From NCBI GenBank assembly GCA_046540335.1, contig JBKHFH010000003.1, forward strand, positions 6,954 to 70,953: a stretch of 64,000 nt of DNA, written 5' to 3'. Position 1 is the stretch's first letter, and each line of letters opens with the position of its first letter. The DNA is from Thermoplasmata archaeon (GTDB lineage Archaea; Thermoplasmatota; Thermoplasmata; Halarchaeoplasmatales; Halarchaeoplasmataceae). Made by a program: the position numbers and the translations under genes. Below are positions 12,049-26,248 of this stretch, piece after piece. Under the pieces are notes generated by a model that was not told the DNA's origin, ran no database searches, and saw only the letters and a program-made list of their open reading frames with translations.

Positions 12049-12059
12049 AAAAGGTAAAC

Positions 12060-13160
12060 ATGGCTGAAGATATCGAAGAGGAAATCAAGAAAATCGAGGA
12101 AGAGATCCGCGAAACCCCCTATAATAAATCCACGGAGCAGCATATAGGCCGTTTGAAGGCAAAGGTAGCTAAACTGAAGGAAAAAAAAGAGAAAAGGGAA
12201 AAAGGAAAATCGGAAAGTGGTGGAGGGTACGACATAAAGAAGGAAGGCGACGCGACGGTAGCTTTGGTAGGTCTCCCAAGCGTTGGTAAAAGTACACTTC
12301 TCAATAAACTCACAAATGCAGAAAGCAAAGTCGCGAACTATCATTTCACAACTCTAGACGTGATACCAGGGATAATGGAGCACAACGGGGCAGAAATACA
12401 ACTTTTAGATCTCCCCGGTCTTGTCGAGGGCGCTTCAAAAGGAAAAGGAAGAGGTAGAGAGATCTTATCGGTTATAAGGAACGTCGATCTGATAATAATC
12501 ATCGGAGACATATATAGAAGAGACATAAATAAGATCGAGGAAGAATTGCGCTCTCACGGCATAAGGCTGAATCAGGAACCTCCTGATATCAAGATAAAAG
12601 AAAAAGATAGGGACGGTATCAAGATAAACACCACCGTCGAACTAAACAACATAAGAAAAGAGACTATAATGGACATACTGAGAGAGTTCGACTATGTTAA
12701 TGCTGACGTAGTTATAAGAAGCGATATAGACGATCAAGAACTGATCGATTTTCTGAGTAACAACAGGGTCTATCTTCCATCTTTTCCGATAATTAACAAG
12801 ACAGACCTGATAGATGAGGAAGCTAAAAAAGATCTACAAGATGAATTAGGAGACCGCGAACCTCTGTTGATATCCGCCGAAGAAGGATTGGGCATTCAAG
12901 AAGTCAAGCAGAGGATCTTTGACGAGTTGGATTTCATCCGAGTGTTTCTCAGACCCCAGGGCGAGAAAGCTGACGATGAACCGATGGTGATCAAAAAAGG
13001 GAGTACTGTGGAAAACATATGTAAGAAACTGCATAGTGATTTTCTTGAAAATTTCAGATATGCAAGGATCTGGGGGCCCACCGCGAAGTTCCCGAAGCAA
13101 AAAGTAGGTCTAGATCATGAACTAGCGGAAGGAGATACCGTCAGGATCATCACCAAATAA
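12060..13160 (+). CDS. Developmentally regulated GTP-binding protein (DRG/Rbg1, Obg-like GTPase with C-terminal TGS domain)
   Basis: G1 GLPSVGKST, G2 FTTL, G3 DLPG; N-terminal K-rich helix ...HIGRLKAKVAKLKEK; C-terminal TGS-like domain (RIWGPTAKF ... GDTVRII). Confidence 0.85.
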   Translation: MAEDIEEEIKKIEEEIRETPYNKSTEQHIGRLKAKVAKLKEKKEKREKGKSESGGGYDIKKEGDATVALVGLPSVGKSTLLNKLTNAESKVANYHFTTLDVIPGIMEHNGAEIQLLDLPGLVEGASKGKGRGREILSVIRNVDLIIIIGDIYRRDINKIEEELRSHGIRLNQEPPDIKIKEKDRDGIKINTTVELNNIRKETIMDILREFDYVNADVVIRSDIDDQELIDFLSNNRVYLPSFPIINKTDLIDEEAKKDLQDELGDREPLLISAEEGLGIQEVKQRIFDELDFIRVFLRPQGEKADDEPMVIKKGSTVENICKKLHSDFLENFRYARIWGPTAKFPKQKVGLDHELAEGDTVRIITK

Positions 13161-13180
13161 GTTATATTGTACTTATTTTC

Positions 13181-13738
13181 TTGATAAACTTACCTATGAA
13201 AGAGATAATATCAAAAGCGATGAGCTCAGGGTTAGATTTTTCGCAGAAGGGTGTCCTGAAATCTTTCCTCTACAAAATGGATATCGACGAAGAGACCTAC
13301 GATCGCGTATATGTTCAGATCAAGAATAATGCGATGAAAGATAAAGTCTCGAAGATACCTTTTAAAGACAGGATGGTGATGGTGCCTCAGTGTTTGAGAG
13401 ATCCTGAAAATTGCGAAGCTGAATTGGGTGAATGGGGTCATGAGTGTAACAGATGCGGGAAATGCGATGTAGATAAAATCATGGAGATCGCAGAAGACCT
13501 CGGATACGGTGGTGTATATATCGTGCCGGGTTCCAGTATGGCCAAAAAACTACTGAAGAAGAAAAACTATGGGGCTGTGGTTGCTGTAGCTTGCCATTCG
13601 GAACTTGTAGAAGGTTTTGAAGCCGCACATGTTTTTAACGTGCTTGCTCAGGGCATACCTCTCAAAAAAGAAGGGTGTGTCAACACGGAGGCTGATCTTA
13701 GAGAAATCAAAGAAAAGCTGAGGATCCGGAAGGAGTAA
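13181..13738 (+). CDS. DUF116-family protein with conserved cysteine cluster
   Basis: PQCLRDPENC...CNRCGKC cysteine motif followed by VAVACHSELVEG, which matches my recollection of the DUF116 (PF01976) consensus. Confidence 0.45.
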   Translation: MINLPMKEIISKAMSSGLDFSQKGVLKSFLYKMDIDEETYDRVYVQIKNNAMKDKVSKIPFKDRMVMVPQCLRDPENCEAELGEWGHECNRCGKCDVDKIMEIAEDLGYGGVYIVPGSSMAKKLLKKKNYGAVVAVACHSELVEGFEAAHVFNVLAQGIPLKKEGCVNTEADLREIKEKLRIRKE

Positions 13739-13748
13739 ATATGATATT

Positions 13749-14462
13749 ATGATCCAAGAACTTCCCGTTATCAGCGTGGTCGGTGATTCCGACTCTGGTA
13801 AGACCGAGCTCATCTGTCAGTTGATCGAAGAGCTCAGAGGATCAGGCTATGATGTGGCGACGATAAAGCATACCAGAGGTGATTTCAGCATCGATACTGA
13901 AGATAAAGATACATGGAAACATTCTAAAGCCGGTGCGGAGCTAGTTGTCTTTTCCAGTCCAGAGGAATCCGACTTCTTATACCAACGCTCCTTAGAACTG
14001 GAAGAACTGGTATCACACATCGAAGAATTCGGGGATCATGACCTAGTGCTGGTAGAGGGTATGAAAGAAGAGGACATACCCAAGATAAGCGTTGGAGAAG
14101 GATTTGAAGATGAATCGGGGATGCATTATTCTGGAGATATGGAGACGATCCTAGATTATATAGAGAGAAAAATTGAATTGCATAATATACTCATAGAGCT
14201 GGCCGGTCAGGACTGCGGGGAGTGCGGATATCCGAGCTGTGAAGAGCTCGCAGAATCGATATTAGAAGGTGAAAATTCAATCGATGACTGTCAAAAACTC
14301 GAGAATACAGAAACTGTTAAACTTTGGATAAATGGAGAAAGTGTTTCTTTAGGGAGATTTCCTGCTAATATGGTCGAAAAGACTATCAGAGGGATGCTCA
14401 GTTCCCTAAAAGGCATCGAGGGCGACGAAAACGATATCGAGATCGAGATAGATGAGAGGTAG
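13749..14462 (+). CDS. mobB: Molybdopterin-guanine dinucleotide biosynthesis adaptor MobB fused to a C-terminal Fe-S cluster domain
   Basis: VISVVGDSDSGKTELICQLI P-loop ... ATIKHT ... LVLVEGMK are MobB hallmarks; C-terminal CGECGYPSCEEL...DDC resembles a PF04060-type Fe-S binding domain. Confidence 0.75.
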   Translation: MIQELPVISVVGDSDSGKTELICQLIEELRGSGYDVATIKHTRGDFSIDTEDKDTWKHSKAGAELVVFSSPEESDFLYQRSLELEELVSHIEEFGDHDLVLVEGMKEEDIPKISVGEGFEDESGMHYSGDMETILDYIERKIELHNILIELAGQDCGECGYPSCEELAESILEGENSIDDCQKLENTETVKLWINGESVSLGRFPANMVEKTIRGMLSSLKGIEGDENDIEIEIDER

Positions 14463-14469
14463 GTATAGA

Positions 14470-14943
14470 ATGGAAGTCATCGGGGTAAAGATATCTGAAA
14501 CGAAAGATTCTAAAGATATATTTGAAGATATAGAGTGCTTCAGAGAACAAACTGAAACTTTCGTACAGATCTTCGATCATTCAAAAGTTGTATCTAAAGA
14601 TCATCTTTTGTGGGCTCACCAAAAGGCTGAAGAGAATTTTGAAGAAAAAACAAATCGAGCCGATAATATCGAGATTGAAACTTTACTTTGGTCTTCAGGT
14701 GAGTGGCAGATCAAGGATGCGATCGATAAGATGGGGATCGAAGATAGGGACAGAAGAGCTGTTGTCCTTTTAGATTCAAGTCCGCAGAAATTCATCGATT
14801 TCATGAGTTGGGAAAGAGACGATTCCATATTGGAAGTTAGTGAGGAAAAACTGAAAGCATTTGGAATAGATGAGAAAGAGATCGAATCTGTGGATTCCCC
14901 TGAAGATCTCGTATTCGAAAAGATGGCTACATCCATACTGTGA
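14470..14943 (+). CDS. cgi121: KEOPS complex subunit Cgi121
   Basis: HLLWAHQKAE...IEIETLLWSSGEWQIKDAIDKMGI...VVLLDSS...ILEVSEEKLKAFGI aligns block by block with archaeal Cgi121 (HVLHAINQA / ILVRASGQRQIHEAIKIIG / VLEINEDK). Internal ATG at 14470 chosen; overlaps the mobB stop. Confidence 0.55.
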   Translation: MEVIGVKISETKDSKDIFEDIECFREQTETFVQIFDHSKVVSKDHLLWAHQKAEENFEEKTNRADNIEIETLLWSSGEWQIKDAIDKMGIEDRDRRAVVLLDSSPQKFIDFMSWERDDSILEVSEEKLKAFGIDEKEIESVDSPEDLVFEKMATSIL

Positions 14944-14969
14944 AAAAGGAAAAAAGAGAAAAAAGGTTT

Positions 14970-16079
14970 TTATTCTTCTACTTCTTCGAACCTATCTTCT
15001 AGATCGTCCATCACGTCTGGTAGGGTCGTGTATTCCATCTCTTCCAGAGGGAGTCTGTGAGGTTCGAACGGTCCGTGTCTCCTCATGTAATCAGCAGTCT
15101 CCGCGGACTTCTCTCTAACGGTGTCGAATGCGGGATCATCGAAAAGATCAGCGGGCTCGTCAAATTTACCGTTCTTCAGCTGTGTACCAAGTGCCATCAC
15201 CCTGGGCGGGCCATCGAATCTAGTGCACTGAGAGTCCTTTTCACCTACGGGCATTATAGGCCCGTTATGACTTCCTCTCATCCATCCAGAAACCAAGTAT
15301 GGATGAGCGAAAGGTTCTAGAACTTCTCCTAGAGCGGGGAGTCCGGACTGGGCTCTCACAACAGCTACCGGGTCGTCTTTGCCTACGTACTCTCCTGCTA
15401 CCTGGTACAATTTTTCTGTACTCACCGCAGCTACGGGTTCATCTTCCGGTAACTTGCTCTCTTTCTTCGGATAGACTTTCTTGATCACGAATCTTCCTTT
15501 AGCTCCTAGAAGTGCCAGCATATCGTATAGTTCTTCAGGGGTCTCCATCATTATCTTCTCGTTCTTTTTGATGTCCCATATCTCGAATCTGAAACCGATA
15601 TGGAGTGAAGGGTCTATAACCAGACCGGCAGTGTTGAATGGATCGGCAAAGATCTTGAATATAGGGTAATTGAACGCACCGGGCTCAGTCTTATCCATAA
15701 GGAAAGCTACTACAGGTTCCGCTTTTCTTGCCGTGAATTCCATCTCGGCTATCCCGGGACCCATACCTCTCACGTTTCCTGAGAACGCGTCGGAGAGAAG
15801 GTCCTGTCCAGCGCCGTAAAGCCCCAGTTCTTTAGCCTTTTCCGTTGCTTCCTGGAAAGTGTCCCAGGCGAGCGAATGTATCTCTTCTGAGTCTTCACCC
15901 TTTCTGTGGGTCATCAGAAGTTCAAGATCGTCCCCGCAGTGTGTCACGTAGTAATCTTCTAGAACATCTGAATACGCGAGTTTTTTCTCCGCCACTTCCA
16001 TCAGATCATCGTGTACTCTGGAATGTCCGGGGTATCCACCGACATCGGCCTTTATGATACTAAATGTTATCTTGCTCAT
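14970..16079 (-). CDS. fbp: Bifunctional fructose-1,6-bisphosphate aldolase/phosphatase (archaeal class V FBPase)
   Basis: MSKITFSIIKADVGGYPGHSRVH N-terminus and overall length (369 aa) are characteristic of FBPase V. Confidence 0.88.
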   Translation of the reverse strand: MSKITFSIIKADVGGYPGHSRVHDDLMEVAEKKLAYSDVLEDYYVTHCGDDLELLMTHRKGEDSEEIHSLAWDTFQEATEKAKELGLYGAGQDLLSDAFSGNVRGMGPGIAEMEFTARKAEPVVAFLMDKTEPGAFNYPIFKIFADPFNTAGLVIDPSLHIGFRFEIWDIKKNEKIMMETPEELYDMLALLGAKGRFVIKKVYPKKESKLPEDEPVAAVSTEKLYQVAGEYVGKDDPVAVVRAQSGLPALGEVLEPFAHPYLVSGWMRGSHNGPIMPVGEKDSQCTRFDGPPRVMALGTQLKNGKFDEPADLFDDPAFDTVREKSAETADYMRRHGPFEPHRLPLEEMEYTTLPDVMDDLEDRFEEVEE

Positions 16080-16183
16080 CTATACACCTCAATTGTCTCT
16101 ATAGAGACACTAAATAAAAGATTATCGATTTAGGCGGACCAAAAGTGAAAATGTTTTAAGGGAAAAACAGGATTTTAGAATAT

Positions 16184-16528
16184 ATGAACTCAGAATTTAT
16201 CGAAGACTACTCCTTCGGTAAGATAGTGATCGACGGTGAACGTTACACCGATGATGTGATTCTTCTAGGAGAAAAAGTGATAGATGGTTGGTGGAGGGAG
16301 AGAGGGCACAGAGTGAACAAAGATGATCTCGGTAAAATTGTGAGGTTCGATCCAGATATTTTGATAATAGGAACCGGTAGTTCAGGACGGATGAAGGTAC
16401 CTTCTAGTCTATCCAGTAAATTTGAGTTTGAAATGGAATCGTATCCGACTCGGCAGGCATGTGAGAGATATAATGAGTTACTGCAGCAAGATAAGAAGAT
16501 CGCTGGGGGTTTCCATCTGACATGTTGA
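16184..16528 (+). CDS. MTH938-like (DUF498) domain protein, tandem copy 1
   Basis: DILIIGTGSSGRMKV...GGFHLTC; MTH938 fold consensus (..lviGtG..g.l.v ... H.tC). Confidence 0.6.
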   Translation: MNSEFIEDYSFGKIVIDGERYTDDVILLGEKVIDGWWRERGHRVNKDDLGKIVRFDPDILIIGTGSSGRMKVPSSLSSKFEFEMESYPTRQACERYNELLQQDKKIAGGFHLTC

Positions 16529-16887
16529 AGATAGAGGGCACTGAATTTGGTGAAGTCACCGTGAACGGTGAAAAATACGATCATGATATCGTAGCATTTC
16601 CAAATGAGGTGATCGAGAGGAAAAAATGGATCACTAAAGATAAGCACGGAACCAGTCACAGGTTTACCAGGGATGAGATGGAAGAGTACATAGAGGGAGC
16701 GGGTCATGAGGCGATAGATGAAGTGATCGTTGGGACCGGTCAGTACGGTAAGTTGGGCTTGCTTCCGGAGACTAGAGAATACCTTGAACAAAAAGACATC
16801 TCCTATAAAGAGAAAAAGACGCCCGAACTTGTCGGTCGAGATATCGATGAAAGTGAAACTATGACGATAATCCACGTTACCTGCTAG
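16522..16887 (+). CDS. MTH938-like (DUF498) domain protein, tandem copy 2
   Basis: Paralogue of the preceding ORF (FGEVTVNGEKYDHD / VIVGTGQYGKLGL / IIHVTC); 7-bp overlap with copy 1. Confidence 0.6.
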   Translation: MLKIEGTEFGEVTVNGEKYDHDIVAFPNEVIERKKWITKDKHGTSHRFTRDEMEEYIEGAGHEAIDEVIVGTGQYGKLGLLPETREYLEQKDISYKEKKTPELVGRDIDESETMTIIHVTC

Positions 16888-18389
16888 ATCATACCGTGTT
16901 CTTCTACACCCTTTTCGACTTCGTTCAGAAATTCCTCCGTCCCTTCTGGTTTTTCCGTCACTGAGCTGACACTAACGAATATGATCAGGGTGATCAGCAG
17001 TCCCCAAAAAGAAGGCCACCACCCGAGCGGATAATAAGCCGGTCCAGCGATATACATAGATGTGGTGATGATCCCACCGACAACCATGCTCGATAAAGCC
17101 CCTTCGGTCGTCGAACCTTTCCAGAAGAACGAACCGATGATCGTAGGAGCCATCACCAGTAAGCCGCCTGAAGCCATGCTCGATAGAACCGCTATCATGT
17201 TCAATCTAAGGTTCGCGAAAAATATACAGCTCAGAAGTATAAGGATGATGATGATCTTACCGAAATAGACTTCTATCTTTTCAGAAATACCCGGTTTAAA
17301 ACCTTTAACAAGGTCTCTAGAGCCGAGTGAGCTGAGTGTGAGCGTTATAGAACTCAAAGTGGAAGTGGCGGCTGCAAATATGCTTACGAAAACGACCAAA
17401 GCTAGAACAACAGGCACGTTACCCAAGAGGACGGGCATCGCACTGTCGGGATCAGCTCCAACTTCAAGGCCGGTTCCAGCTATAGAGAAACCCAATAGCG
17501 TTGTTATCACCGTATAAACAAGGGCGAAAATCGAGAAATAGATTATCATCCTTTTTACGCTCTTCACAGAATCAGAAACGAACATCCTCTGAGATACCTG
17601 GGGATTGGTGAGAGCGAAGAAGGCCCAAGGTAAAGTAAGTCCTATGAACATGCTGAAATCCCAATTTAGTGTGAGAAGCTGAGAGTGTTCCGTAGTTATC
17701 TCAGTTACGAAACCGGCGGGTCCGCCGAAAAAGTGATAGAATACGAATATCACCAGAAGGATGCTGGCTCCCAGCATGATCAAGGCCTGAAAGGCGTCCG
17801 TCCAGGAGACCGACCTCATGCCCGCCCAGAACGCACTTATACCGCTGAAACCCGCGACGAGCAGAACGCCGATTAGGTACAGGCTGGAAATGGTGACTCC
17901 GAAGACCTCGAAAGCGGGAAGAGAAACTGATGCCATGCCTTCGATCAGGAAACCTATACCCATCATCTGGGCCGAAGCATAAGGGATGAGCATGGTGAGA
18001 CAGATGATCGATGAAACGATGCCGACCCACCTGCTGTTATACCTCTTAGCCATCAATTCCGGCGGTGTGATTATATCGTATTTCTTCCCAGCGATCCAAA
18101 ATCTTGGAGCGAATATTATCAATAATAGTATAGTAAAGACGATATATATCATCTCGAAACCTACAGCACCAACTCCCGTACTGTAGGTCAGACCCACTAG
18201 ACCAACCATCATGAACGCACTAAAAGTCGTCGCGCTGTAAGTCATGCCGGAGATGAAACCGCTCAGTTTCCTGTTCGCTAGGAAGAAATCAGGCATGCCT
18301 TCCCCGACATATTTTCTGGCCTTATATGCGATGACCACTCCCAGGAAAAACCATATCGCCAGTGCGATCGCTATATAGATCGGACTCAT
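16884..18389 (-). CDS. Sodium:solute symporter family (SSF/SSS) transporter
   Basis: 13-14 TM segments; N-terminal FLANRKLSGFISGMTYSATTFSAFMMVG matches the SSS signature region. Confidence 0.8.
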   Translation of the reverse strand: MSPIYIAIALAIWFFLGVVIAYKARKYVGEGMPDFFLANRKLSGFISGMTYSATTFSAFMMVGLVGLTYSTGVGAVGFEMIYIVFTILLLIIFAPRFWIAGKKYDIITPPELMAKRYNSRWVGIVSSIICLTMLIPYASAQMMGIGFLIEGMASVSLPAFEVFGVTISSLYLIGVLLVAGFSGISAFWAGMRSVSWTDAFQALIMLGASILLVIFVFYHFFGGPAGFVTEITTEHSQLLTLNWDFSMFIGLTLPWAFFALTNPQVSQRMFVSDSVKSVKRMIIYFSIFALVYTVITTLLGFSIAGTGLEVGADPDSAMPVLLGNVPVVLALVVFVSIFAAATSTLSSITLTLSSLGSRDLVKGFKPGISEKIEVYFGKIIIILILLSCIFFANLRLNMIAVLSSMASGGLLVMAPTIIGSFFWKGSTTEGALSSMVVGGIITTSMYIAGPAYYPLGWWPSFWGLLITLIIFVSVSSVTEKPEGTEEFLNEVEKGVEEHGMI

Positions 18390-18568
18390 CTGTTCTCACC
18401 CCAGTCTCTGAGGTGGATGAAACCGATCATTATGGTTATAAGAGCTAAAAGAGTCCAGTAGAGATAACTGGCCCAAAAACTCGCTATATCTCCTAGGAAA
18501 GTATAAGGTACTCCCACGCTCAATAAAGCCATGATCACCGCTATTATGCCCAGAGTCTTTATCTTCAC
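18386..18568 (-). CDS. Small two-TM membrane protein coupled to the SSS transporter (DUF3311-like accessory subunit)
   Basis: 60 aa, two hydrophobic helices; ATGA overlap with the downstream symporter, as for known symporter-associated small subunits. Confidence 0.5.
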   Translation of the reverse strand: MKIKTLGIIAVIMALLSVGVPYTFLGDIASFWASYLYWTLLALITIMIGFIHLRDWGENR

Positions 18569-18684
18569 TCTATCACTTATATTATGAATAGGACTAACCC
18601 CAATAATTATTTAAATATATTGATACCAAGGTCGAAGATACCTACTTGATGATAGGCAGAATCTTAAAATAATTTACATCACCA

Positions 18685-18918
18685 TTAGGTTCGTCTTCGA
18701 CCTTCTTTAGACAGGAGCGATACTACCTCGTCTACGTCGTACAATTTGAGATCCTCACGCTCTTCAGCAGCCTCGGCTACCTCACTCAGCACTTCGACGA
18801 TAGCGTCCCAGACCTGCCCGAGCGCGTCCAGCACCGTATCTATCGCTCCATTCATCTCTTCCTCCACTTGTACTTCGTTGCCGGCCTGGTCTTTGCTGGG
18901 CAGAAAGTATCGGTCCAA
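18685..18918 (-). CDS. Small highly acidic hypothetical protein in a local GC-rich island
   Basis: 77-aa ORF; local GC is about 55% versus about 42% window-wide; helical acidic sequence; no recognised domain. Confidence 0.3.
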   Translation of the reverse strand: MDRYFLPSKDQAGNEVQVEEEMNGAIDTVLDALGQVWDAIVEVLSEVAEAAEEREDLKLYDVDEVVSLLSKEGRRRT

Positions 18919-19087
18919 ATGTGACTAGATGAAATCATCTGAATTATCAACAAAAAGACATTCAAAGTCGCTCTTCTCGACATCCTCGGCCAACCTATTT
19001 CCTCTGGATTCTAGGTGTATAAATGATAGCGAATAAAATACTTTCGGACCCGATTAGCGATCATATATAGAATCCCTACATAATTGT

Positions 19088-19109
19088 TATATGAGACATA
19101 TAATCATTA
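19088..19109 (+). promoter_or_regulatory. Nested palindromes (TATATG-AGA-CATATA; ATAAT-C-ATTAT) upstream of the relB-like gene: putative operator/TATA
   Basis: Perfect 6-bp inverted repeat plus an overlapping 5-bp inverted repeat 13-34 bp upstream of the antitoxin ATG. Confidence 0.4.
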
Positions 19110-19121
19110 TATATTGGTAAG

Positions 19122-19319
19122 ATGTCAACAACGATCCAGATAGAGAAAGAAACGAGAGAAAGGCTGAAAAGATTTGGACATAAAGGAGAATCCTATGACG
19201 AGATAATAGAGCGGTTGATGAACTACTGCGACGAATTGGACATGGAGGAGTTCATAGAGGCAAGGTGGAAAAGACTCCAGGAAGAAAAAGATGAATATCT
19301 CTCAGTGGACGAGATATAG
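19122..19319 (+). CDS. RelB-like (archaeal aRelB-type) antitoxin
   Basis: 65 aa; IQIEKETRERLKRF..GESYDEIIERLMN resembles archaeal RelB antitoxins; the stop lies 1 bp before the toxin ORF. Confidence 0.55.
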   Translation: MSTTIQIEKETRERLKRFGHKGESYDEIIERLMNYCDELDMEEFIEARWKRLQEEKDEYLSVDEI

Positions 19320-19320
19320 A

Positions 19321-19627
19321 TGAAAGTAGTTATACATCCAAGGGTTCAGAAATACATTGAAAATGATAGAGAAATAAAAACTCCTTCCATCCTCAAAAAT
19401 AAAAAATTTTCTGCGGATAGTGGGAAAAAGAAAGACTGGTCAAACATCTAAAAAGATTGGCTGATGGTCCGTATAACAGTAGGAGTGGTGCCGATATCAA
19501 GAAATTAAAAGGAAAAAAACATGATATGTATAGATTGGGGATCGGGGGTCATCGATTCGAGTATTTTGTCGAAGAGGGAAAAGTCTGGATCGATGAAGCT
19601 TTTCAGAGAGGGAGAGGGTATAGATGA
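19321..19627 (+). pseudogene. RelE/ParE-family toxin gene disrupted by a +1 frameshift
   Basis: Frame 1 (19321-19455) encodes MKVVIHPRVQKYIENDREIKTPSILKNKKF...; frame 2 (to 19627) encodes ...IKKLKGKKHDMYRLGIGGHRFEYFVEEGKVWIDEAFQRGRGYR. Joined, these parallel archaeal RelE (MTYRVKIHKQVVKAL...VIKLEGTGDLDLYRARLGDYRVIYSVN...KPRGRAY). The frame switch lies in an A-rich stretch near 19420-19455. Confidence 0.55.
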
Positions 19628-19950
19628 GGTCATACTGCTTAGAAATTTTTTCTATGAACACATACCGGAATCTATATGTGACTGGATAAAGTCGTCTGTA
19701 TTGTCAAAAAAAGGAGTAGAAGCCTCACGCTTCACAACTCTCTCTGCCAATCTTCGGCCTCCGGAGTCATATTGATATTTCTTAATAGAATAAAATGATT
19801 ACGGAAAATATGCAGGGATTCTACCTTACTAACCAGGTAGTTCTATATGATCATCGAGAGCTGTTTTTACGAGGATAGGAACCAAAGACCCCAACACTCA
19901 TTTAATAACTGTGACTCAAGATACGGATTCGGTAAGTTCGAAAGGTCTTC

Positions 19951-20706
19951 CTAAGATTTAACGAAATGATTCCTCAGAGTCCCTATCCCTTCGATCTCTA
20001 TCTCCACCTCATCTCCGTCTTCTATCGGGCTTACTCCGGAAGGTGTTCCAGTAGAGATTATATCGCCTCTCTCCAGGGTTATGTAAGTCGTTATCTCCTC
20101 GATCAATTCGGGTACCGAGAAGGCGAGTTGATCTATCGTAGATCGTTGTTTGACTTCGCCATTAACCACCGCTTTTATCTCAGCGTCTTCAGGCACGTGA
20201 TTTTTCTCAGCAACTACAGGACCGATAGGAGCGGCCTTATCGAAGGCTTTACCTCTCACCCAGTTCTGCTCCACTCTCTGATCGTCTCTATTCGAAAGAT
20301 CGTTGACGCAGGTGAAACCCATCACGTGATCCATCGCTTCCGAACGATCGACACCTTTACATCTCTCTCCGATGACCACGCCCAGCTCGGCCTCATGGTC
20401 TATACGTTCTTTTCCCGCCAAAAGTTCGATGGTCTCCTGGTGAGACGCTACGGTATTAGGGGTCTTCAAAAACAACTTTGGTCTTTCGGGGATCTCTTTC
20501 CCAGTCTCCTCTGCATGATCCTGATAGTTCAATCCTATACATACGAGTTTGGACGGCTTCACCGGAGGGAGTATCTCCACTTCATCACATCTGTAGATGT
20601 TGTCCTCGTGCTCTATCTCGCCACCTTTCATCTCCCCGTGAAGTACCGAGCCGTCTTCATCTCTAAATCTGATCCGTCGCATGTATTTCGTAGTAGAGAA
20701 AATCAT
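19951..20706 (-). CDS. Fumarylacetoacetate hydrolase (FAH) family protein (2-keto-4-pentenoate hydratase / oxaloacetate decarboxylase-like)
   Basis: KLVCIGLNYQDHAEE ... PKLFLK ... DHEAELGVVIG are FAH-fold metal-binding motifs. Confidence 0.8.
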   Translation of the reverse strand: MIFSTTKYMRRIRFRDEDGSVLHGEMKGGEIEHEDNIYRCDEVEILPPVKPSKLVCIGLNYQDHAEETGKEIPERPKLFLKTPNTVASHQETIELLAGKERIDHEAELGVVIGERCKGVDRSEAMDHVMGFTCVNDLSNRDDQRVEQNWVRGKAFDKAAPIGPVVAEKNHVPEDAEIKAVVNGEVKQRSTIDQLAFSVPELIEEITTYITLERGDIISTGTPSGVSPIEDGDEVEIEIEGIGTLRNHFVKS

Positions 20707-20728
20707 ATAAATATTTCTTCACGAAAGA

Positions 20729-21355
20729 TCAGCCTTTTTCAGCTTCTACATAGTTGTTGCCGTTAGAGTGATAAGCCTCCAACACTTCAAGACCGCTTTT
20801 CTTGACGTCCTCTTCAAGCTCATCCAGCTTATAAAGGTGATAGAACCTGTCTACGATCTCACCGCCTTCTCGGTGCCAGGGAACTATCACCTCTCGCTCG
20901 TCTTCCCCTAAATCCCATCTATCGTTCTCTCTCGCCCAGCTCGAAACCAATATCTTCCCTCCTTCTTTCAGCACTCTCTTCGACTCTTTTAGGCTCTTGA
21001 CCCTTCCCTCCTTCAGATGATGGATCGTAGCGATATATATCGCATCATCGAAGCTTTCATCTTTGAACGGAATTGACTTGACTCCGGATCTTACCACCTC
21101 CGCCTCACCCCCGGTCTTTTTCCTGCAGATCTTGAGTAGCTCGCTTGAAGCGTCTACTCCATAAACTTTCAATCCGATGTCTAGAGCTCCAATCAGATGA
21201 CGACCGTTCCCGCATCCTATATCTAAAAGACTTCCTCCACATCCCTCGAAAAACTCGACGACCTCGTTCCAGGGCCGATTCCTCGTTTTGTCGAAGTGCT
21301 CGGCTATCGAATTGAAGGTCTCTGATGCCCTTCTAGCGTCTTCCATATTCACCAA
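20729..21355 (-). CDS. Class I SAM-dependent methyltransferase, Trm9-like tRNA methyltransferase
   Basis: Motif I LLDIGCGNGRHL; N-terminal HFDKTRNRPWNEV resembles the Trm9/ALKBH8 MTase HFS.TR..PWP motif. Confidence 0.5.
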   Translation of the reverse strand: MVNMEDARRASETFNSIAEHFDKTRNRPWNEVVEFFEGCGGSLLDIGCGNGRHLIGALDIGLKVYGVDASSELLKICRKKTGGEAEVVRSGVKSIPFKDESFDDAIYIATIHHLKEGRVKSLKESKRVLKEGGKILVSSWARENDRWDLGEDEREVIVPWHREGGEIVDRFYHLYKLDELEEDVKKSGLEVLEAYHSNGNNYVEAEKG

Positions 21356-21398
21356 AGAAAAAACATAAGTTTTATATTCTCCGGAAAGTTAAATCTAT

Positions 21399-22154
21399 TT
21401 GATGGTTGTTTTCAGAGTCGGTTTGTTAGTAGGGATATGCTCATTCCTCGGCCTCGTCACCTATCGAAGAGGGATGCTGAATGCCGACGGCTCGATAACC
21501 GCTTTCATCATCGGCCTTTTCATCGGTCTCCAGGCCGGTCTCACCCTGATCTTGCTTCTGCTGGTTTTTTTAGCGAGCGCTTTCCTAGCTACAAGATACA
21601 AGTTCGATTACAAAAAGGAAAGAGGTATAGAGGAGGGTTTCAAAGGGGAAAGAGGATGGACCAACGTTCTGGCTAACGGCATCGTACCCGTCTTTATACT
21701 CCTACTTTACAGCTCGGGCAATTTAATAGATTTCGGCTTTCTAGATACGCGCTTTACCATGTTTTTATTCGTACTAGCTGTCGCTGCTGCAGCTTCTGAC
21801 ACACTCGCATCCGAAATAGGTATGGCTTCAGAGAAAGTTTACCTCATAACCACGTTTGAAAAAGTGAAACCGGGTACCAACGGTGGGGTCTCTCTCTACG
21901 GGGAGTTCTGGGCGATGATAGGCTCCTTATATACCTTTTCAGTAGCACAGATGATGTTCTATCTATCGAATCAGCCTATCTTCTCCATCGAAATGCTTTT
22001 ATTCGGTGCTTTCATCGGTTTCTTAAGTTGTCAGATAGATAGCGTACTCGGAGCGACACTAGAGAGGAAAGGAGTACTCAATAAATCACTCGTCAATCTG
22101 TTCGCGATCGCTATATCTGTGACGATATATGGAGGTGTTATCCATGTCTGGTAA
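21399..22154 (+). CDS. DUF92 (TMEM19-like) integral membrane protein
   Basis: Polytopic; conserved KPGTNGGVSLYGE motif typical of the DUF92 family. Confidence 0.5.
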   Translation: MMVVFRVGLLVGICSFLGLVTYRRGMLNADGSITAFIIGLFIGLQAGLTLILLLLVFLASAFLATRYKFDYKKERGIEEGFKGERGWTNVLANGIVPVFILLLYSSGNLIDFGFLDTRFTMFLFVLAVAAAASDTLASEIGMASEKVYLITTFEKVKPGTNGGVSLYGEFWAMIGSLYTFSVAQMMFYLSNQPIFSIEMLLFGAFIGFLSCQIDSVLGATLERKGVLNKSLVNLFAIAISVTIYGGVIHVW

Positions 22155-23364
22155 GATGTTGATGTTTATATTAGACGGGGTTGGAGATAGATCTGTGGAA
22201 GCTTTAGACGGTAAAACTCCTCTTGAAGCGGCCGATACGCCAAATTTGGATTCTTTCGCGAAAGAAGGAGAGAACGGCATCATGGATACGATCGCACCCG
22301 GAATCAGGCCGGGAAGCGATACCGGTCATCTTTCTCTTTTAGGATACGATCCTTATGAGGTATACAGCGGAAGAGGTCCTTTCGAAGCTGCGGGAATAGG
22401 TATGGATCTCGAGCCTCAAGATGTTGCCTTCAGGTGTAATTTTGCGACCCTCGAAGACGGTAAAGTCGTGGACCGAAGAGCCGGGAGGATAAAGGAGGAT
22501 ACGGAGGAATTGTCTGAAGCTGTCAGGGATATCGATTTAGATGTAGACTTTGAATTTGAAAAGGCTGTAGAACACAGATGCGTTTTGGTCTTGAAAGGTG
22601 AAGGATTGGGGGGCGATGTTACCGACGTTGATCCACACCAAGCCGATGTAGAACCTCATAGAGCGTCACCTTTAGAAGATTCTGAAGAGAACGACAGGAC
22701 CGCTAAGATACTAAATGAGTTCGTGGATAAGACCATAGACGTTCTTTCTGACCATCCCGTCAACCAAAGAAGAAGAGAAGAGGGCAAACTCCAGGCTAAT
22801 GTGATCCTCCCTAGAGGAGGGGGCAAAGTTCCAGAGATGGAGGACATAAAATCAAAGCATGGATTGAACGCGGGAGCTATCTCAGGTATACCTCTAGTTA
22901 GAGGGGTTTGTTCATTGGCGGGGATGGATATACAGGTGGTAGATGAAGCCACCGGGGGACTCGACACCGATCCCACTTCTATAATGGAAGCCACCATAGA
23001 GTCTTTCGAAGATCACGATTTTATGATGGTCAATATCAAAGGCTGTGACCTCTCGGGTCACGACGGACTGCCAGAACAGAAAATAGAATTCATAGAAAAG
23101 ATAGATTCATCGATAGGCCGTCTCAAAGAGATAGACGATGTTTATATCGCAATAACTGGCGATCATTCAACACCCGTCACTATCAAAGAGCATAGCGGGG
23201 ATCCCCTTCCACTGACGATATGGGGCAATGATGTCAGAGTTGACGATGTCGAGGAGTTCAATGAAAAAGCTTGCAGTCAAGGCGGTATCAATAGAGTGAG
23301 AGGTAAAGATATACTTAATATCCTGAAGGATCTTGCGAATCGTACGGAAAAATTCGGCGCCTAG
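22144..23364 (+). CDS. apgM: 2,3-bisphosphoglycerate-independent phosphoglycerate mutase, archaeal type (ApgM)
   Basis: MSGKMLMFILDGVGDR N-terminus; metalloenzyme superfamily motifs (GDHSTP, alkaline-phosphatase-like core); about 407 aa. Confidence 0.85.
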   Translation: MSGKMLMFILDGVGDRSVEALDGKTPLEAADTPNLDSFAKEGENGIMDTIAPGIRPGSDTGHLSLLGYDPYEVYSGRGPFEAAGIGMDLEPQDVAFRCNFATLEDGKVVDRRAGRIKEDTEELSEAVRDIDLDVDFEFEKAVEHRCVLVLKGEGLGGDVTDVDPHQADVEPHRASPLEDSEENDRTAKILNEFVDKTIDVLSDHPVNQRRREEGKLQANVILPRGGGKVPEMEDIKSKHGLNAGAISGIPLVRGVCSLAGMDIQVVDEATGGLDTDPTSIMEATIESFEDHDFMMVNIKGCDLSGHDGLPEQKIEFIEKIDSSIGRLKEIDDVYIAITGDHSTPVTIKEHSGDPLPLTIWGNDVRVDDVEEFNEKACSQGGINRVRGKDILNILKDLANRTEKFGA

Positions 23365-23843
23365 CGCTTGTAACCTATAGTTTGAAGGAACTCCTTTCTC
23401 TCTTCCTTATCTTCTTCGTCTTCAACTCCCACAGTCGGGGATCCATCGATGACTCCCATTATCCCTCTCCCGCTCTCAGCATCAGCCACGACTACCTCTA
23501 CTGGATTGGCCGTAGCGCAGTATATCCTGCATACCTCGGGTACGTCTTTCAAAGCTTTCATCACATTTATCGGGAACGCATTTTCCATTAATACAATAAA
23601 GCTGTGTCCCGCGTTTATTTTCTCTGCATTCTCCACAGCAAGATACTCTAGATATTCATCAGTTCCATCGTATCTTATCAGTCTATCTCCAGATGCTTCA
23701 CAGAAAGCAAGTCCAAAATCCATCTCCGGTACTGAAGTGACCATCGCCTCATAGATATCTTCGACGGTCTTTATAAAATGACTTTGCCCTATGATCACAT
23801 TCATCTCCTCGTCTTTCTCAACTTCCACTCTTTCCAATTCCAT
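23361..23843 (-). CDS. Adenosine-specific kinase-like protein (PF04008/DUF355 family)
   Basis: NVIIGQSHFIKTVEDI...FGLAFCEASG...CATANPVEV resembles the archaeal adenosine-specific kinase family as I recall it. Confidence 0.4.
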   Translation of the reverse strand: MELERVEVEKDEEMNVIIGQSHFIKTVEDIYEAMVTSVPEMDFGLAFCEASGDRLIRYDGTDEYLEYLAVENAEKINAGHSFIVLMENAFPINVMKALKDVPEVCRIYCATANPVEVVVADAESGRGIMGVIDGSPTVGVEDEEDKEERKEFLQTIGYKR

Positions 23844-23901
23844 CTCACATCATCTCCGGACACTCATAATCAAAGTTCTAAATAGATTTAACGTAAAGAG
23901 G

Positions 23902-24882
23902 TTAGACGTCGGGTTCTCCCTCTTCATCGTACATCTCATCTTCGGGTTCTTTCACCCATCCGCACCGAATACATTCCTTTTTCCCTTCAAGTAGATGGCC
24001 ACACTCAGGACAGTTATCCTCGAGCTCTTCTTCTTTTTCCTCTAGACCTTCTGTACTCTCACTAATGCTCTTATCCATCCGTCTTTTCAACCACAGGATT
24101 CCGACTCCCAAAAAGAAGAACATCAAAGTAGATATACTCTGCTGAAAGGTGATTATGCCTAGAACGTCTCTTCTGTTCAGAGTGACAGGTCCGAATCCGA
24201 GAGACGTTCTTTCCCAGTCGTAGTCCTCTTCACCACTCATAGATATGTTTCTCTTCAATGAGAAGTAATGATTAAATAGCCTATCTGGAAGGTCAGTCAC
24301 AATCGTAAAAAATTCAACCGTGCCGTTTTTGTCGACATCAGAATCGACCCTTTCCATCATATAGCCATCAAAATCATCTCTCCTTAAACCTTCCACTTGG
24401 GTATAAGATAGATTGGCAAAAACTTTGTAATTTCCTTCAGTATGATTTTCCACGAATTCTTCGCTCAATTCAACAGTGAAATTGAACTTAGTTCCACCGT
24501 CCCCATAAACAGGTTCAACGGTTCCATTAACGAGTTTCCCCTCCGCTGAATCCACCTGTCTGGATGGCCGGCCATAGATGACCTCAGTTTGATAGAAAGC
24601 CATACTGAAAGCTATCAGGATTATCACCGTTAATCCCACAACGATCAATTTTCTGAGTTTATACTCATCATATAGCTTGTAAGGTATCAATATCGCCAAT
24701 ATCGGTATAACTAAATTCATCAGACAGGGGTTCATAAAGATAACCCAGAGGGAGGCGATGAATACCGTAAAGATATAGACTGGGATGGAGAGCCGAGACT
24801 CCCTCACCTCCTTGGTCTTCTCGTTTATCTTTTTTAGCACTCCATCAGACCCTTCATTTTCCATAATTAAACCTTTTATCAC
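23902..24882 (-). CDS. Membrane protein with extracytoplasmic domain and C-terminal cytoplasmic zinc ribbon
   Basis: Three TM helices at the N-terminus, a fourth TM late in the protein, then CPECGHLLEGKKECIRCG Cys4 ribbon and an acidic tail. Confidence 0.45.
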   Translation of the reverse strand: MIKGLIMENEGSDGVLKKINEKTKEVRESRLSIPVYIFTVFIASLWVIFMNPCLMNLVIPILAILIPYKLYDEYKLRKLIVVGLTVIILIAFSMAFYQTEVIYGRPSRQVDSAEGKLVNGTVEPVYGDGGTKFNFTVELSEEFVENHTEGNYKVFANLSYTQVEGLRRDDFDGYMMERVDSDVDKNGTVEFFTIVTDLPDRLFNHYFSLKRNISMSGEEDYDWERTSLGFGPVTLNRRDVLGIITFQQSISTLMFFFLGVGILWLKRRMDKSISESTEGLEEKEEELEDNCPECGHLLEGKKECIRCGWVKEPEDEMYDEEGEPDV

Positions 24883-24901
24883 TCATAATATTTTGAACTA
24901 A

Positions 24902-26248
24902 TTAATCTTTTTGAATAGTGACCCCATGTTTAATTCTTTGACCTGACTTGTAAATATATTCCACTAGATTGACACCGAACCGATAAGGGATGTGTTGATG
25001 GTTTGGTACATCTAAGATCAAAAAGTCCGCTTTTTTTCCTACTTCGATAGAACCTATATCATCTTTGTTCAGTGCTTTAGCCGCATTGAAAGTCGCCGCC
25101 GTCAGAGCTTCGCTGGGAGTCATCTTCATCTGTAAGCATGCAAGAGTTATCACGGACTGCATACTCTCGGTCCAGCAATTCGGATTGAGATCGGTAGCGA
25201 GAGCTATAGCCATGCCTTCCTCTATCATCTTCCTCGCTGGAGAATATTCATCTTCCATAAGCATGAACGGCGTTCCCGGTAAAAGTATACCGATTGTTCC
25301 ACTATCAGCTAACTTCTTTATATCTTCTGCACCGGTCTTGACTAGATGTTCTGCCGATATCGCACCGATATCTGAAGCCATGGAACTGCACCCGATATTT
25401 TCTATCTCGTCGGCGTGTACCCGTGGTCCTAAACCGCTTTCTTTCGCAGTCTCAAGCAGTTTCCTGCTTTCACTGGACGAAAAAACACCTTTTTCGCAGA
25501 ACACGTCGCAGTAGTCGGCGAGATCTCTCTTTATCACTTCGGGCAGGACTTCCTTGATGCAGAAGTCGATGTATTCTCCACTGTCCTCGAACTCTGGAGG
25601 TAGTGAATGCGCCCCAAGATAGGTAGGGACCAGATCAACAGGGTGCTCTTCGTCAAGTTCCTTTATAACCTCTAAAGATTTGATCTCATTTTCTTTGTCC
25701 AGACCATAACCGCTCTTGGCCTCTACGGTGGTCGTTCCGGACCTCATCATACCGTTCAATCTTTTTAAAGACTGCTCTTTCAATTTTTGTTTCGAGGCCC
25801 TCCTTGTAGCTTTTACGGTACTCAGTATGCCGCCGCCTTCTTCCAGTATCTGCATGTAACTCTTACCTTCTATCTTCATCTGAAGTTCTTCTTCTCTCGA
25901 ACCCGCATAGACCAGATGGGTATGAGGATCCACGAATCCTGGTATCAATGTCTTGCCTGAGGCATCGATCACTTTTTCAGCCTCGTATTCATCTCTCAAT
26001 CTCTTAGAATCGCCGACCTCCACTATATTCTCTCCTTTCACCGCCAATGCTCCGTTCTCGATCTTCCCGGTATCTCTCATCTCATCGCCCCTTCTAGCTC
26101 TATCCGGTCCTTGAAGGGTATGCACCTCAGATATGTCCTTGACCAAAATATCTACTTTGTTCAAATCATCACCTCTAATATACCTAGGTTCTTGAGTAAA
26201 AAGTAGCCGAAAACTATGAAACCTATCACTATAGCTATTGTAGCCCAT
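24902..26248 (-). CDS. hutI: Imidazolonepropionase-like amidohydrolase (HutI family)
   Basis: GFVDPHTHLVYAGSREEE and RVHADEIENIG match HutI metal-binding motifs; the true start is probably internal, as 448 aa is long for HutI. Confidence 0.65.
   Translation of the reverse strand: MGYNSYSDRFHSFRLLFTQEPRYIRGDDLNKVDILVKDISEVHTLQGPDRARRGDEMRDTGKIENGALAVKGENIVEVGDSKRLRDEYEAEKVIDASGKTLIPGFVDPHTHLVYAGSREEELQMKIEGKSYMQILEEGGGILSTVKATRRASKQKLKEQSLKRLNGMMRSGTTTVEAKSGYGLDKENEIKSLEVIKELDEEHPVDLVPTYLGAHSLPPEFEDSGEYIDFCIKEVLPEVIKRDLADYCDVFCEKGVFSSSESRKLLETAKESGLGPRVHADEIENIGCSSMASDIGAISAEHLVKTGAEDIKKLADSGTIGILLPGTPFMLMEDEYSPARKMIEEGMAIALATDLNPNCWTESMQSVITLACLQMKMTPSEALTAATFNAAKALNKDDIGSIEVGKKADFLILDVPNHQHIPYRFGVNLVEYIYKSGQRIKHGVTIQKD

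What the first reader, a model, noticed from the sequence alone, without database searches (positions are those of the whole stretch)
19088..19627. relBE-like toxin-antitoxin pair in which the RelE toxin is split by a +1 frameshift
An intact 65-aa RelB-like antitoxin (GESYDEIIERLMN) is followed 1 bp later by a RelE-like gene whose N-terminal half (MKVVIHPRVQKYIEN...) and C-terminal half (...DMYRLGIGGHRFEYFVEEGKVWIDEAFQRGRGYR) lie in different frames. The switch falls in an A-rich run. The antitoxin is retained together with its palindromic operator while the toxin is inactivated. Alternatively this is a programmed frameshift site or an assembly error in a homopolymer. It also marks a small accessory islet (19.0-19.9 kb) with a nearby GC-anomalous ORF.
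Basis: partly seen in the sequence, partly recalled or inferred. Interest (0 to 1): 0.6.

Follow-up and report, generated by a model that had tools for sequence, protein, structure and literature searches.

The report
Broken RelE-like toxin, intact antitoxin
This is a small archaeal toxin-antitoxin cassette whose toxin gene is broken by a real one-base deletion next to an 18-codon insertion while the antitoxin stays intact, which is ordinary decay of a selfish gene pair.

Summary
The two-frame toxin is real. Window 18900-19960 is 100% identical in three independent assemblies, and the 43-aa truncated product is called on six contigs from at least four sequencing runs.

The toxin belongs to an 84-aa archaeal RelE-like family. 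Its profile hits P. horikoshii aRelE and M. jannaschii RelE3 at E=1e-4, and a model of the nearest relative matches 1WMI_A best.

The antitoxin (19122-19319) is Pfam DUF7557 with a ribbon-helix-helix-like N-terminus. It is not RelB by homology.

- A 54-nt in-frame insertion (19365-19418, 18 codons) sits between strand 1 and helix 1. A Thermoplasmatota relative shares it and keeps it in frame. All four substitutions between the two copies are synonymous.
- The frame break is one missing base (the T of a GGT/GAT codon, 19422-19424) just 5' of the A5 run. The run itself has normal length. This is a deletion that a -1 slip would correct, not a +1 slip.

The window copy also carries R->G at a position that is basic in 56 of 57 relatives.

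The cassette sits in a 1.4-kb low-GC islet at a site that is empty or holds nadA-nadC in syntenic relatives.

Best reading: a recently inactivated toxin with a retained, autoregulated antitoxin. Corrective -1 slippage on G_AAA_AAG is not excluded but has no support.

The parts
19087..19112 (+). Putative promoter/operator: two overlapping palindromes, TTATATG-AGA-CATATAA (19087-19103) and ATATAAT-C-ATTATAT (19098-19112), 10-35 nt upstream of the antitoxin ATG.
   Evidence: The proximal palindrome is kept in L001 as ACATAAT-A-ATTATGT, a symmetric double change. L002 has ATATAAC-C-ATTATAT. Protein binding is inferred and was not tested.
19122..19319 (+). Intact antitoxin gene (65 aa). The N-terminal residues 3-36 are ribbon-helix-helix-like and the C-terminus is acidic.
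   Evidence: Pfam DUF7557, E=6.7e-14, 51.5 bits against a cut-off of 25. VapB_antitox is weak at 23.3 bits, below its cut-off. NCBIfam BfmA/BtgA N-terminal domain scores 25.5 bits against a cut-off of 24. It is 96% identical in DNA to L002, with one amino-acid difference. The same gene precedes the toxin in L001, L002-L006 and L013.
19320..19451 (+). Toxin 5' ORF (frame 1, 43 codons plus TAA): strand 1 (MKVVIHPRVQKYIEN), the 18-aa insertion, then out-of-frame residues.
   Evidence: The exact 43-aa product is called on 6 contigs.
19365..19418 (+). 54-nt in-frame insertion (DREIKTPSILKNKKFSAD) relative to the 84-aa family. It begins with GATAG, and GATAG also spans its 3' junction.
   Evidence: Alignment A1. 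The same insertion is in frame in L001/P0001. The 4 substitutions against L001 are all synonymous in frame 1 and none is synonymous in the other two frames (p about 0.002-0.01). It is modelled as a disordered loop with pLDDT below 50. There is no second copy anywhere searched.
19422..19424 (+). Site of the 1-nt deletion that breaks the frame. The window has GGG where L002 has GGTG and L001 has GATG.
   Evidence: The A5 run that follows has the same length in all three sequences.
19424..19430 (+). G_AAA_AAG (codons in the 0 frame). This is the only slippery-like motif inside the 28-nt stretch open in both frames (19421-19448).
   Evidence: Read from the sequence. The first position does not fit X_XXY_YYZ. 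No significant downstream structure was found (z=+1.1). The A-rich run encodes the family-wide EKER motif.
19424..19627 (+). Toxin 3' part (frame 3, 67 codons plus TGA): helix 1 and the four-stranded sheet of the RelE fold. It has no start codon of its own in a good context.
   Evidence: Changes on the window branch are D->G in the DDP motif, R->G in RLRVG (R/K in 56 of 57 relatives), D/E->G and R->Q, against about 9 synonymous changes.
18914..19050 (+). Left copy of a ~137-nt direct repeat that flanks the cassette.
   Evidence: (D1 and D5, both with spacing 757). The same arrangement is present in L002.
19671..19807 (+). Right copy of the flanking direct repeat. On the minus strand it holds a 32-aa remnant of the small ORF 'X' (19652-19750).
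18569..19950 (.). The accessory islet (1382 nt) between the small membrane subunit/SSF transporter genes and the FAA-hydrolase gene.
   Evidence: The gene order methyltransferase-FAA-gap-small60-SSF is conserved in soda-lake relatives. The gap is 36-60 nt in L018, L035 and L052. It is about 2 kb and holds nadA-nadC-like ORFs in L016, and has the same size in L014, L015 and L019. The islet is 39.7% GC and the neighbouring genes are 48%.

Best explanation
This is a chromosomal type II toxin-antitoxin cassette in a probable Thermoplasmatota archaeon from hypersaline or soda-lake samples. It pairs a DUF7557 ribbon-helix-helix-type antitoxin with an archaeal RelE-like toxin, normally an 84-aa protein expected to cleave mRNA on the ribosome.

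The window's allele belongs to a rare sub-lineage that acquired an in-frame 18-codon loop insertion between strand 1 and helix 1. That insertion was translated and kept under purifying selection.

Later the window's lineage lost one base (the T of the Gly codon, 19422-19424), 4-5 nt after the insertion. Translation from ATG 19320 therefore stops at 19449 after 43 codons. The product has strand 1 and the loop but lacks helix 1 and the whole sheet, so no toxin is made.

The antitoxin gene keeps its reading frame, its sequence and its palindromic promoter/operator. It presumably still represses its own promoter, and it could neutralise related incoming toxins.

Shown: frames, insertion, deletion, reproducibility, family and fold, islet. 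Inferred: loss of toxicity, operator binding, any anti-addiction role.
For: - Frames and stops.
- The family is 84 aa long and uninterrupted in 50+ relatives.
- The DNA alignment places the 54-nt insertion and the single missing base.
- The allele is identical in 3 assemblies, and its 43-aa product is on 6 contigs from at least 4 runs.
- RelE assignment: the family profile hits 3BPQ_B and 1WMI_A at E=1e-4. The model of P0001 matches 1WMI_A best, with TM 0.68/0.74.
- The antitoxin is conserved, with 1 amino-acid difference from L002 in 65 residues, and matches DUF7557.
- R->G falls at a position that is R/K in 56 of 57 relatives, and D->G at one that is D in 49 of 57.
- A second gene of the islet (X) carries an in-frame TAG, which fits a decaying islet.
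- Orphan antitoxins left by degrading toxin-antitoxin pairs are common in bacteria (PMC7192599, read).
Against: - Changes on the window branch in the toxin 3' part are mostly synonymous: 4 non-synonymous of 13, P about 0.001 against neutrality. The reading frame was therefore under constraint for most of that branch. The break must be recent, or the gene is still expressed in some way.
- Most invariant residues of the family are still present.
- A slippery-like G_AAA_AAG lies exactly in the stretch open in both frames.
- No expression or toxicity data exist.
Confidence: 0.8

Rival explanations
1. The toxin is still made at a low level by -1 ribosomal frameshifting on G_AAA_AAG (19424-19430). 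This would give a 102-aa protein (...SADSGKK/ERLVKHL...), so the frameshift would act as a translational attenuator of toxin dose. It could be programmed or just leaky.
For: - A -1 shift is the direction needed.
- A_AAG-type Lys codons are known shift-prone sites in bacteria (my own knowledge).
- The one validated archaeal -1 case, S. solfataricus fucA1, uses A_AAA_AAT in a 40-nt overlap (PMC8211752).
- The 0-frame stop follows 6 codons later.
- The 3' part shows dN/dS well below 1 on the window branch.
Against: - The heptamer is imperfect, with G in place of A at the first position.
- No stimulatory structure lies downstream (z=+1.1, 178 of 200 shuffles fold as well).
- The A-rich run is simply the family-wide EKER codons, present in all in-frame relatives.
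- The frameshift is seen in one clonal allele only. The closest insert-bearing relative (L001) and the closest overall relative (L002) are in frame.
- R->G at a nearly invariant basic residue.
Confidence: 0.07
2. The toxin was already non-toxic or re-purposed once the 18-aa loop insertion arrived. The later frameshift then removed a protein with some other role, and the antitoxin is kept for regulation only.
For: - The insertion lies in the N-terminal region and is modelled as disordered.
- It is rare, found in one protein cluster plus the window.
- L001 additionally lacks the 4 residues KYIE at the end of strand 1.
Against: - The insertion is under purifying selection, with 4 of 4 substitutions synonymous.
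- The rest of P0001 keeps the family's invariant residues and a confident RelE fold.
- The antitoxin is conserved next to it in L001, as expected if the toxin there is still dangerous.
Confidence: 0.08
3. Sequencing or assembly error: the true genome has a continuous toxin ORF.
For: The region is A-rich and raw reads could not be inspected here.
Against: - Three independent assemblies are 100% identical over 839-1061 nt.
- Six contigs from at least 4 runs call the same 43-aa product.
- The missing base is a T between Gs, and the A5 run has normal length.
Confidence: 0.02
4. The 54-nt insert is a mobile or spliced element (a MITE, an archaeal bulge-helix-bulge intron, or a recombination scar). 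Its removal at the RNA or DNA level would restore the toxin.
For: - The insert begins with GATAG and is followed by GATAG.
- Its 5' end resembles the cassette-boundary repeat: 19021-19042 against 19361-19382, 18 of 22 positions (D4).
- Another family member has an unrelated 57-nt insertion (L013), and another is truncated at the same site (L011).
Against: - No other copy exists in the window, the fetched loci, the 596-Gb genome collection or the metagenome collection.
- Both flanks are purine-rich and cannot pair, and the fold is not significant.
- Removing the 54 nt still leaves the 1-nt deletion.
- Synonymous-only divergence shows that the insert is translated.
- By my own rough estimate, an 18-of-22 match is about what chance gives in 1.1 kb of AT-rich DNA.
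Confidence: 0.02

Closest known systems
Pyrococcus horikoshii aRelE-aRelB (PDB 1WMI) and Methanocaldococcus jannaschii RelBE3 (PDB 3BPQ)
   Same: The toxin family has the same size (84-90 aa) and fold. The profile hits both at E=1e-4. The best structural match is 1WMI_A with TM 0.68/0.74. The toxin gene directly follows a small antitoxin gene.
   Different: - Sequence identity is only about 18-24%.
- The antitoxin here is DUF7557, with a ribbon-helix-helix-like N-terminus. It has no detectable similarity to any solved chain, aRelB and RelB3 included.
- The window's toxin carries an 18-aa loop insertion and is frameshifted.
The 84-aa archaeal 'RelE/ParE family toxin' cluster with a DUF7557 partner (e.g. 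P0002 in GCA_905333785.1; P0009 'Candidatus Saliniplasma sp.')
   Same: Direct homologues, 56-73% identical in protein for most of the family. The gene pair, the adjacent stop and start codons, the upstream palindromes and the flanking repeats are the same.
   Different: They are uninterrupted. They lack the insertion and keep R in RLRVG.
P0001 (98 aa) of Thermoplasmatota MAG NA-30cm_bin.11, contig JAZKSH010000047.1 (L001)
   Same: It has the same 18-aa insertion at the same site, with identical amino acids.
   Different: - It is in frame.
- It lacks the 12 nt that encode KYIE.
- Its genomic context is different (UbiA / NTP-transferase genes).
- The rest of the cassette is only 82-84% identical.
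Orphan antitoxins and degraded toxin-antitoxin loci in bacterial populations (e.g. Klebsiella, PMC7192599)
   Same: The antitoxin is retained next to a disrupted toxin in the original context. Proposed roles are anti-addiction or regulation.
   Different: This one is archaeal. It is a single locus with no population survey, and no function was tested.
Sulfolobus solfataricus fucA1 programmed -1 frameshift (A_AAA_AAT)
   Same: Two ORFs are offset by -1 with a short overlap that holds an A-rich heptamer (PMC8211752).
   Different: There the site is a perfect heptamer flanked by a stem-loop and rare codons, and it is experimentally validated. Here the heptamer is imperfect, there is no structure and no conservation.

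Membership tests
RelE/ParE superfamily toxin (Pfam PF05016; archaeal RelE type) | Profile match above the curated threshold | tested here: inconclusive
   The window C-half and the repaired ORF score 15.2-15.4 bits (E about 0.03) against a cut-off of 23, and the N-half has no hit. At family level, a profile of 35 homologues hits 3BPQ_B and 1WMI_A at E=1e-4. Two homologues carry precomputed PF05016 hits, and NCBI names several of them RelE/ParE.
RelE/ParE superfamily toxin (Pfam PF05016; archaeal RelE type) | RelE fold (N-terminal strand, helix, antiparallel sheet) | tested here: met
   Tested on the closest homologue, P0001 (82% identical to the repaired window ORF). AF2 gives pLDDT 82-90 outside the insert. 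The best PDB match is 1WMI_A, followed by RelE3, YoeB and Mtb RelE.
RelE/ParE superfamily toxin (Pfam PF05016; archaeal RelE type) | Complete, translatable ORF | tested here: not met
   A 1-nt deletion gives a stop after 43 codons. It is reproducible.
RelE/ParE superfamily toxin (Pfam PF05016; archaeal RelE type) | Conserved basic residues of the active site / RNA-binding face | tested here: inconclusive
   The residues aligned with aRelE R40, R58, R65 and R85 are present. The residue aligned with aRelE R60 (R/K in 56 of 57 family members) is Gly in the window. Which of these residues matter for activity is recalled from memory (Takagi et al. 2005) and was not checked here.
RelE/ParE superfamily toxin (Pfam PF05016; archaeal RelE type) | Ribosome-dependent mRNA cleavage and growth arrest, relieved by the partner | not testable with these tools
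RelB antitoxin families (e.g. Pfam RelB; aRelB of 1WMI; RelB3 of 3BPQ) | Sequence or profile similarity to RelB | tested here: not met
   No RelB profile appears among the Pfam hits at E<=10. No PDB chain, aRelB and RelB3 included, is hit at a meaningful E-value (best 0.67, unrelated).
DUF7557 (Pfam PF24434), putative ribbon-helix-helix antitoxin | Profile match above the threshold, and a position directly upstream of the toxin | tested here: met
   51.5 bits against a cut-off of 25. A DUF7557 gene directly precedes the toxin in L001, L002-L006, L013 and the window.
Programmed -1 ribosomal frameshift site | X_XXY_YYZ heptamer in the 0 frame inside the overlap | tested here: inconclusive
   Only G_AAA_AAG (19424-19430) is present. 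Its first position does not fit.
Programmed -1 ribosomal frameshift site | Stimulatory structure 5-9 nt downstream | tested here: not met
   The fold of 19335-19460 gives z=+1.1, with no stable hairpin after the site.
Programmed -1 ribosomal frameshift site | The frameshift is conserved among homologues | tested here: not met
   All 57 database homologues are single ORFs. L001 and L002 are in frame at this site.
Archaeal bulge-helix-bulge intron / MITE | Pairing of the two junctions into a bulge-helix-bulge motif, or multiple copies in genomes | tested here: not met
   No pairing or significant fold. The only copies are this locus and L001.

The most novel reading that the evidence does not exclude
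The one-base deletion does not kill the toxin but places it under -1 ribosomal frameshifting at G_AAA_AAG. A small, tunable fraction of ribosomes would then make a full-length, insertion-bearing RelE-like toxin. This would be a second archaeal -1 recoding case and, as far as I know, the first toxin dosed this way.
Probability: 0.06. Interest if true: 0.7.

Novelty: new member of a known kind. Interest (0 to 1): 0.25.

Why it matters
On its own this matters little, because toxin genes of chromosomal toxin-antitoxin pairs decay often and orphan antitoxins are common.

Three by-products are useful:
1. DUF7557, listed in Pfam as of unknown function, is consistently the upstream partner of an archaeal RelE-like toxin. 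It can be annotated as a putative ribbon-helix-helix antitoxin.
2. A rare toxin sub-lineage tolerates an 18-aa loop insertion that is under purifying selection.
3. The locus gives a dated example of cassette gain and decay at a variable chromosomal site in soda-lake Thermoplasmatota.

Gene callers also mis-annotate the locus. They call a 43-aa ORF and a spurious overlapping 84-aa ORF (19521-19775).

Tried and rejected
- Pfam and NCBIfam on the two halves alone gave nothing above threshold. Family-level profile and structure searches were needed.
- Insert as a repeated element. There is no second copy in the window at up to 3 mismatches or by blastn-short against all loci. The 26-nt core found only L001's contig in genome contigs and nothing in metagenome contigs.
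- Insert as an intron or structured RNA. The fold is not significant, and Rfam at E<=1 over 18300-20300 finds nothing.
- tRNA as an integration target. There is none in 12000-26000.
- Other copies of the toxin or antitoxin in the window that the antitoxin might serve. There are none.
- The antitoxin against the PDB by sequence gave no meaningful hit.
- Literature on DUF7557: no papers.
- A paper to cite for the aRelE catalytic residues was not found in the library, so that point rests on memory.
- An integron-like reading of the flanking repeats. No integrase was seen and no GTTRRRY-type core was recognisable by eye. This was not pursued.

Full report
**What is in the sequence**

An intact 65-codon ORF runs from 19122 to 19319. 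Its TAG is immediately followed by an ATG at 19320. From that ATG, frame 1 reads MKVVIHPRVQKYIENDREIKTPSILKNKKFSADSGKKKDWSNI and stops at TAA 19449-19451. Frame 3 is open from 19421, after a TAG at 19418. It reads WEKERLVKHLKRLADGPYNSRSGADIKKLKGKKHDMYRLGIGGHRFEYFVEEGKVWIDEAFQRGRGYR up to TGA 19625-19627.

The offset runs from frame 1 to frame 3. This corresponds to one missing base, and a -1 ribosomal slip (not +1) would be needed to read through.

**What the genes are**

The antitoxin matches Pfam DUF7557 (E=6.7e-14, 51.5 bits, cut-off 25). It has a sub-threshold match to the archaeal VapB_antitox family. It also matches the ribbon-helix-helix-type N-terminal domain of BfmA/BtgA in NCBIfam (25.5 bits, cut-off 24). 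No RelB family is hit, and no solved structure is hit by sequence.

The toxin halves alone give only a sub-threshold ParE_toxin (PF05016) hit, at 15 bits and E about 0.03. A database search with the repaired ORF found 57 homologues, nearly all 81-87 aa and most exactly 84 aa. They come from Thermoplasmatota, Methanosarcinales and Aenigmarchaeota genomes assembled from metagenomes, and several are named RelE/ParE family toxins by NCBI.

A profile of 35 of them hits M. jannaschii RelE3 (3BPQ_B) and P. horikoshii aRelE (1WMI_A), each at E=1e-4. An AlphaFold model of the nearest homologue, P0001, is confident outside the insertion. Its best PDB match is 1WMI_A (TM 0.68/0.74), followed by RelE3, YoeB and mycobacterial RelE toxins. 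'RelE-like toxin' is thus supported at family level, and 'RelB-like antitoxin' is not.

In every locus fetched (L001, L002-L006, L013) a DUF7557 gene directly precedes the toxin.

**How the toxin is broken**

I aligned the window against the canonical cassette L002 (P0002, 84 aa) and against L001 (P0001, 98 aa). This shows two separate lesions.

- *Insertion.* A 54-nt insertion (19365-19418, DREIKTPSILKNKKFSAD) sits between ...YIEN and SGEKER..., that is, between strand 1 and helix 1. L001 has the same insertion, in frame.
- *Deletion.* A single base is missing 4-5 nt downstream. L002 reads GGTGAAAAAG and L001 reads GATGAAAAAG, while the window reads GG-GAAAAAG. The A5 run has the same length in all three. 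The lesion is therefore not a homopolymer-A miscount.

The four substitutions between the window and L001 inside the insertion are all third-position and synonymous in frame 1. None is synonymous in the other two frames (p about 0.002-0.01). The insertion was therefore translated and kept under purifying selection. In the model it is a disordered loop, residues 11-28 with pLDDT below 50.

It is not a repeated element. There is no second copy in the window or in any fetched locus. A scan of 596 Gb of genomes found only L001's contig, and the metagenome collection gave nothing. It is not a structured RNA or an intron either. The fold has z=+1.1, and Rfam finds nothing.

**Is the break real?**

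Yes.
- Three Logan assemblies of different runs (L007, L008, L009) are 100% identical to the window over 839-1061 nt.
- The exact 43-aa truncated product is called on six contigs, in the same genomic context.
- No intact copy of this allele is in the protein database. The best hit is P0001, at 82% identity.

**Signs of decay and signs of constraint**

I polarised the changes using L001 and L002. The window branch of the toxin 3' part has four amino-acid changes:
- D->G in the DDP motif (D in 49 of 57 relatives);
- R->G in RLRVG (R/K in 56 of 57, aligned with aRelE R60);
- D/E->G;
- R->Q.

These stand against about nine synonymous changes. The antitoxin has at most one amino-acid change.

Four of thirteen is far fewer non-synonymous changes than neutrality predicts (P about 0.001). 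The toxin frame was therefore constrained for most of the branch, and the deletion is probably recent. This is the main point that keeps a recoding reading alive.

**The recoding rival**

Only 19421-19448 is open in both frames. It contains G_AAA_AAG (19424-19430), an imperfect version of the X_XXY_YYZ heptamer. The single validated archaeal case, S. solfataricus fucA1, uses A_AAA_AAT with a flanking stem-loop (PMC8211752).

Several observations count against this rival. There is no downstream structure. The A-rich run is simply the codons of the family-wide EKER motif. The frameshift is not conserved in any homologue. I give it about 6-7%.

**Operator**

Two overlapping palindromes lie 10-35 nt upstream of the antitoxin ATG:
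- TTATATG-AGA-CATATAA (19087-19103);
- ATATAAT-C-ATTATAT (19098-19112).

L001 keeps the proximal one as ACATAAT-A-ATTATGT, which is a symmetric double change. L002 has ATATAAC-C-ATTATAT. This fits binding by a dimeric ribbon-helix-helix protein over a TATA-like promoter. Binding itself is inferred.

**The islet**

The gene order methyltransferase, FAA-hydrolase, gap, small membrane protein, SSF transporter is conserved in related soda-lake contigs (FAA-hydrolase 72-87% identical).
- The gap is 36-60 nt in L018, L035 and L052.
- The gap is about 2 kb in L014, L015, L016 and L019. In L016 it holds two ORFs that look like nadA and nadC by eye. Those ORFs were not profile-scanned.
- The gap is 1382 nt in the window, which carries the small ORF X plus the cassette.

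GC content is 39.7% for the islet, 48% for the neighbouring genes, 42.5% for the whole window and 53.8% for the 77-aa ORF. The 'accessory islet with a GC-anomalous ORF' is therefore confirmed.

The cassette is bracketed by a ~137-nt direct repeat (18914-19050 and 19671-19807). L002 has the same arrangement.

**Verdict**

This is an ordinary, recently decayed archaeal RelE-type toxin-antitoxin cassette with a retained DUF7557 antitoxin. Four details need correcting: the sign of the shift, its cause and position, the missed insertion, and the antitoxin family. The assembly-error alternative is rejected.

Noticed in passing
window 18914-19050 and 19671-19807; L002 2793-2921 and ~3490-3627, plus motif copies at L002 878-893 and 2642-2657: A ~137-nt direct repeat brackets the toxin-antitoxin cassette (757-nt spacing, 45-nt core 78% identical). 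Its 3' part (AATAAAATACTTTCGG-like) recurs between small cassettes in L002, whose neighbourhood is rich in toxin-antitoxin pairs (PIN, VapB/PIN, UPF0175/DUF3368) plus a GNAT gene. It could be a shared promoter region or a recombination site. No integrase was seen.
   Followed up: partly
window 18685-18993 (minus strand); stop codon at 18925-18927: The 77-aa GC-rich ORF (53.8% GC) continues upstream in frame into a homologue of the N-terminus of a small acidic ORF 'X' (L003 2672-2872). The two parts are separated by an in-frame TAG (LAEDVEKSDFECLFVDNSDDFI*SHLDRYFLPS...). A 32-aa remnant of the same N-terminus lies at 19652-19750 (minus strand). X has no Pfam match.
   Followed up: partly
L013 3116-3172 (P0047, GCA_964454575.1): Another member of the toxin family carries a different in-frame 57-nt insertion (NAVQSEPIPLIFHLSQEMK) between DIK and KLKG. 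Short insertions of about 55 nt have thus arisen at least twice in this family.
   Followed up: no
L011 1-230 (P0036): A 5'-truncated toxin copy whose homology starts exactly at the SGEK site where the window's insertion sits. Upstream is unrelated GC-rich sequence. This may be coincidence, a chimeric contig or a recombination hot spot.
   Followed up: no
window 19122-19627 compared with L002 and L001: Mosaic similarity. The antitoxin is 96% identical to L002 but the toxin 3' part only 88.7%. The toxin 5' end plus insertion is about 91% identical to L001, whose flanking parts are 82-84% identical. The allele closest overall (L002) lacks the insertion. This suggests short-tract gene conversion or a precise loss, and remains unresolved.
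   Followed up: partly
window 19361-19382 compared with 19021-19042: The 5' end of the insertion matches the cassette-boundary repeat at 18 of 22 positions (AAATGATAG.GAA.TAAAA.CT). By my rough estimate this is about what chance gives in AT-rich DNA.
   Followed up: partly
window 19521-19775 (+): An 84-aa ORF is called as a gene in the public Logan assemblies (L007, L008, L094). It overlaps the toxin C-terminal coding region in another frame and has no Pfam hit. It is most likely a gene-calling artefact caused by the frameshift.
   Followed up: partly
L014, L015, L016, L019 compared with L018, L035, L052 (the FAA-hydrolase to SSF gap): The same intergenic site is empty in some soda-lake relatives. 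In others it holds a ~2-kb segment with ORFs that look like nadA and nadC (read by eye in L016 only). It is a variable site in this lineage.
   Followed up: partly
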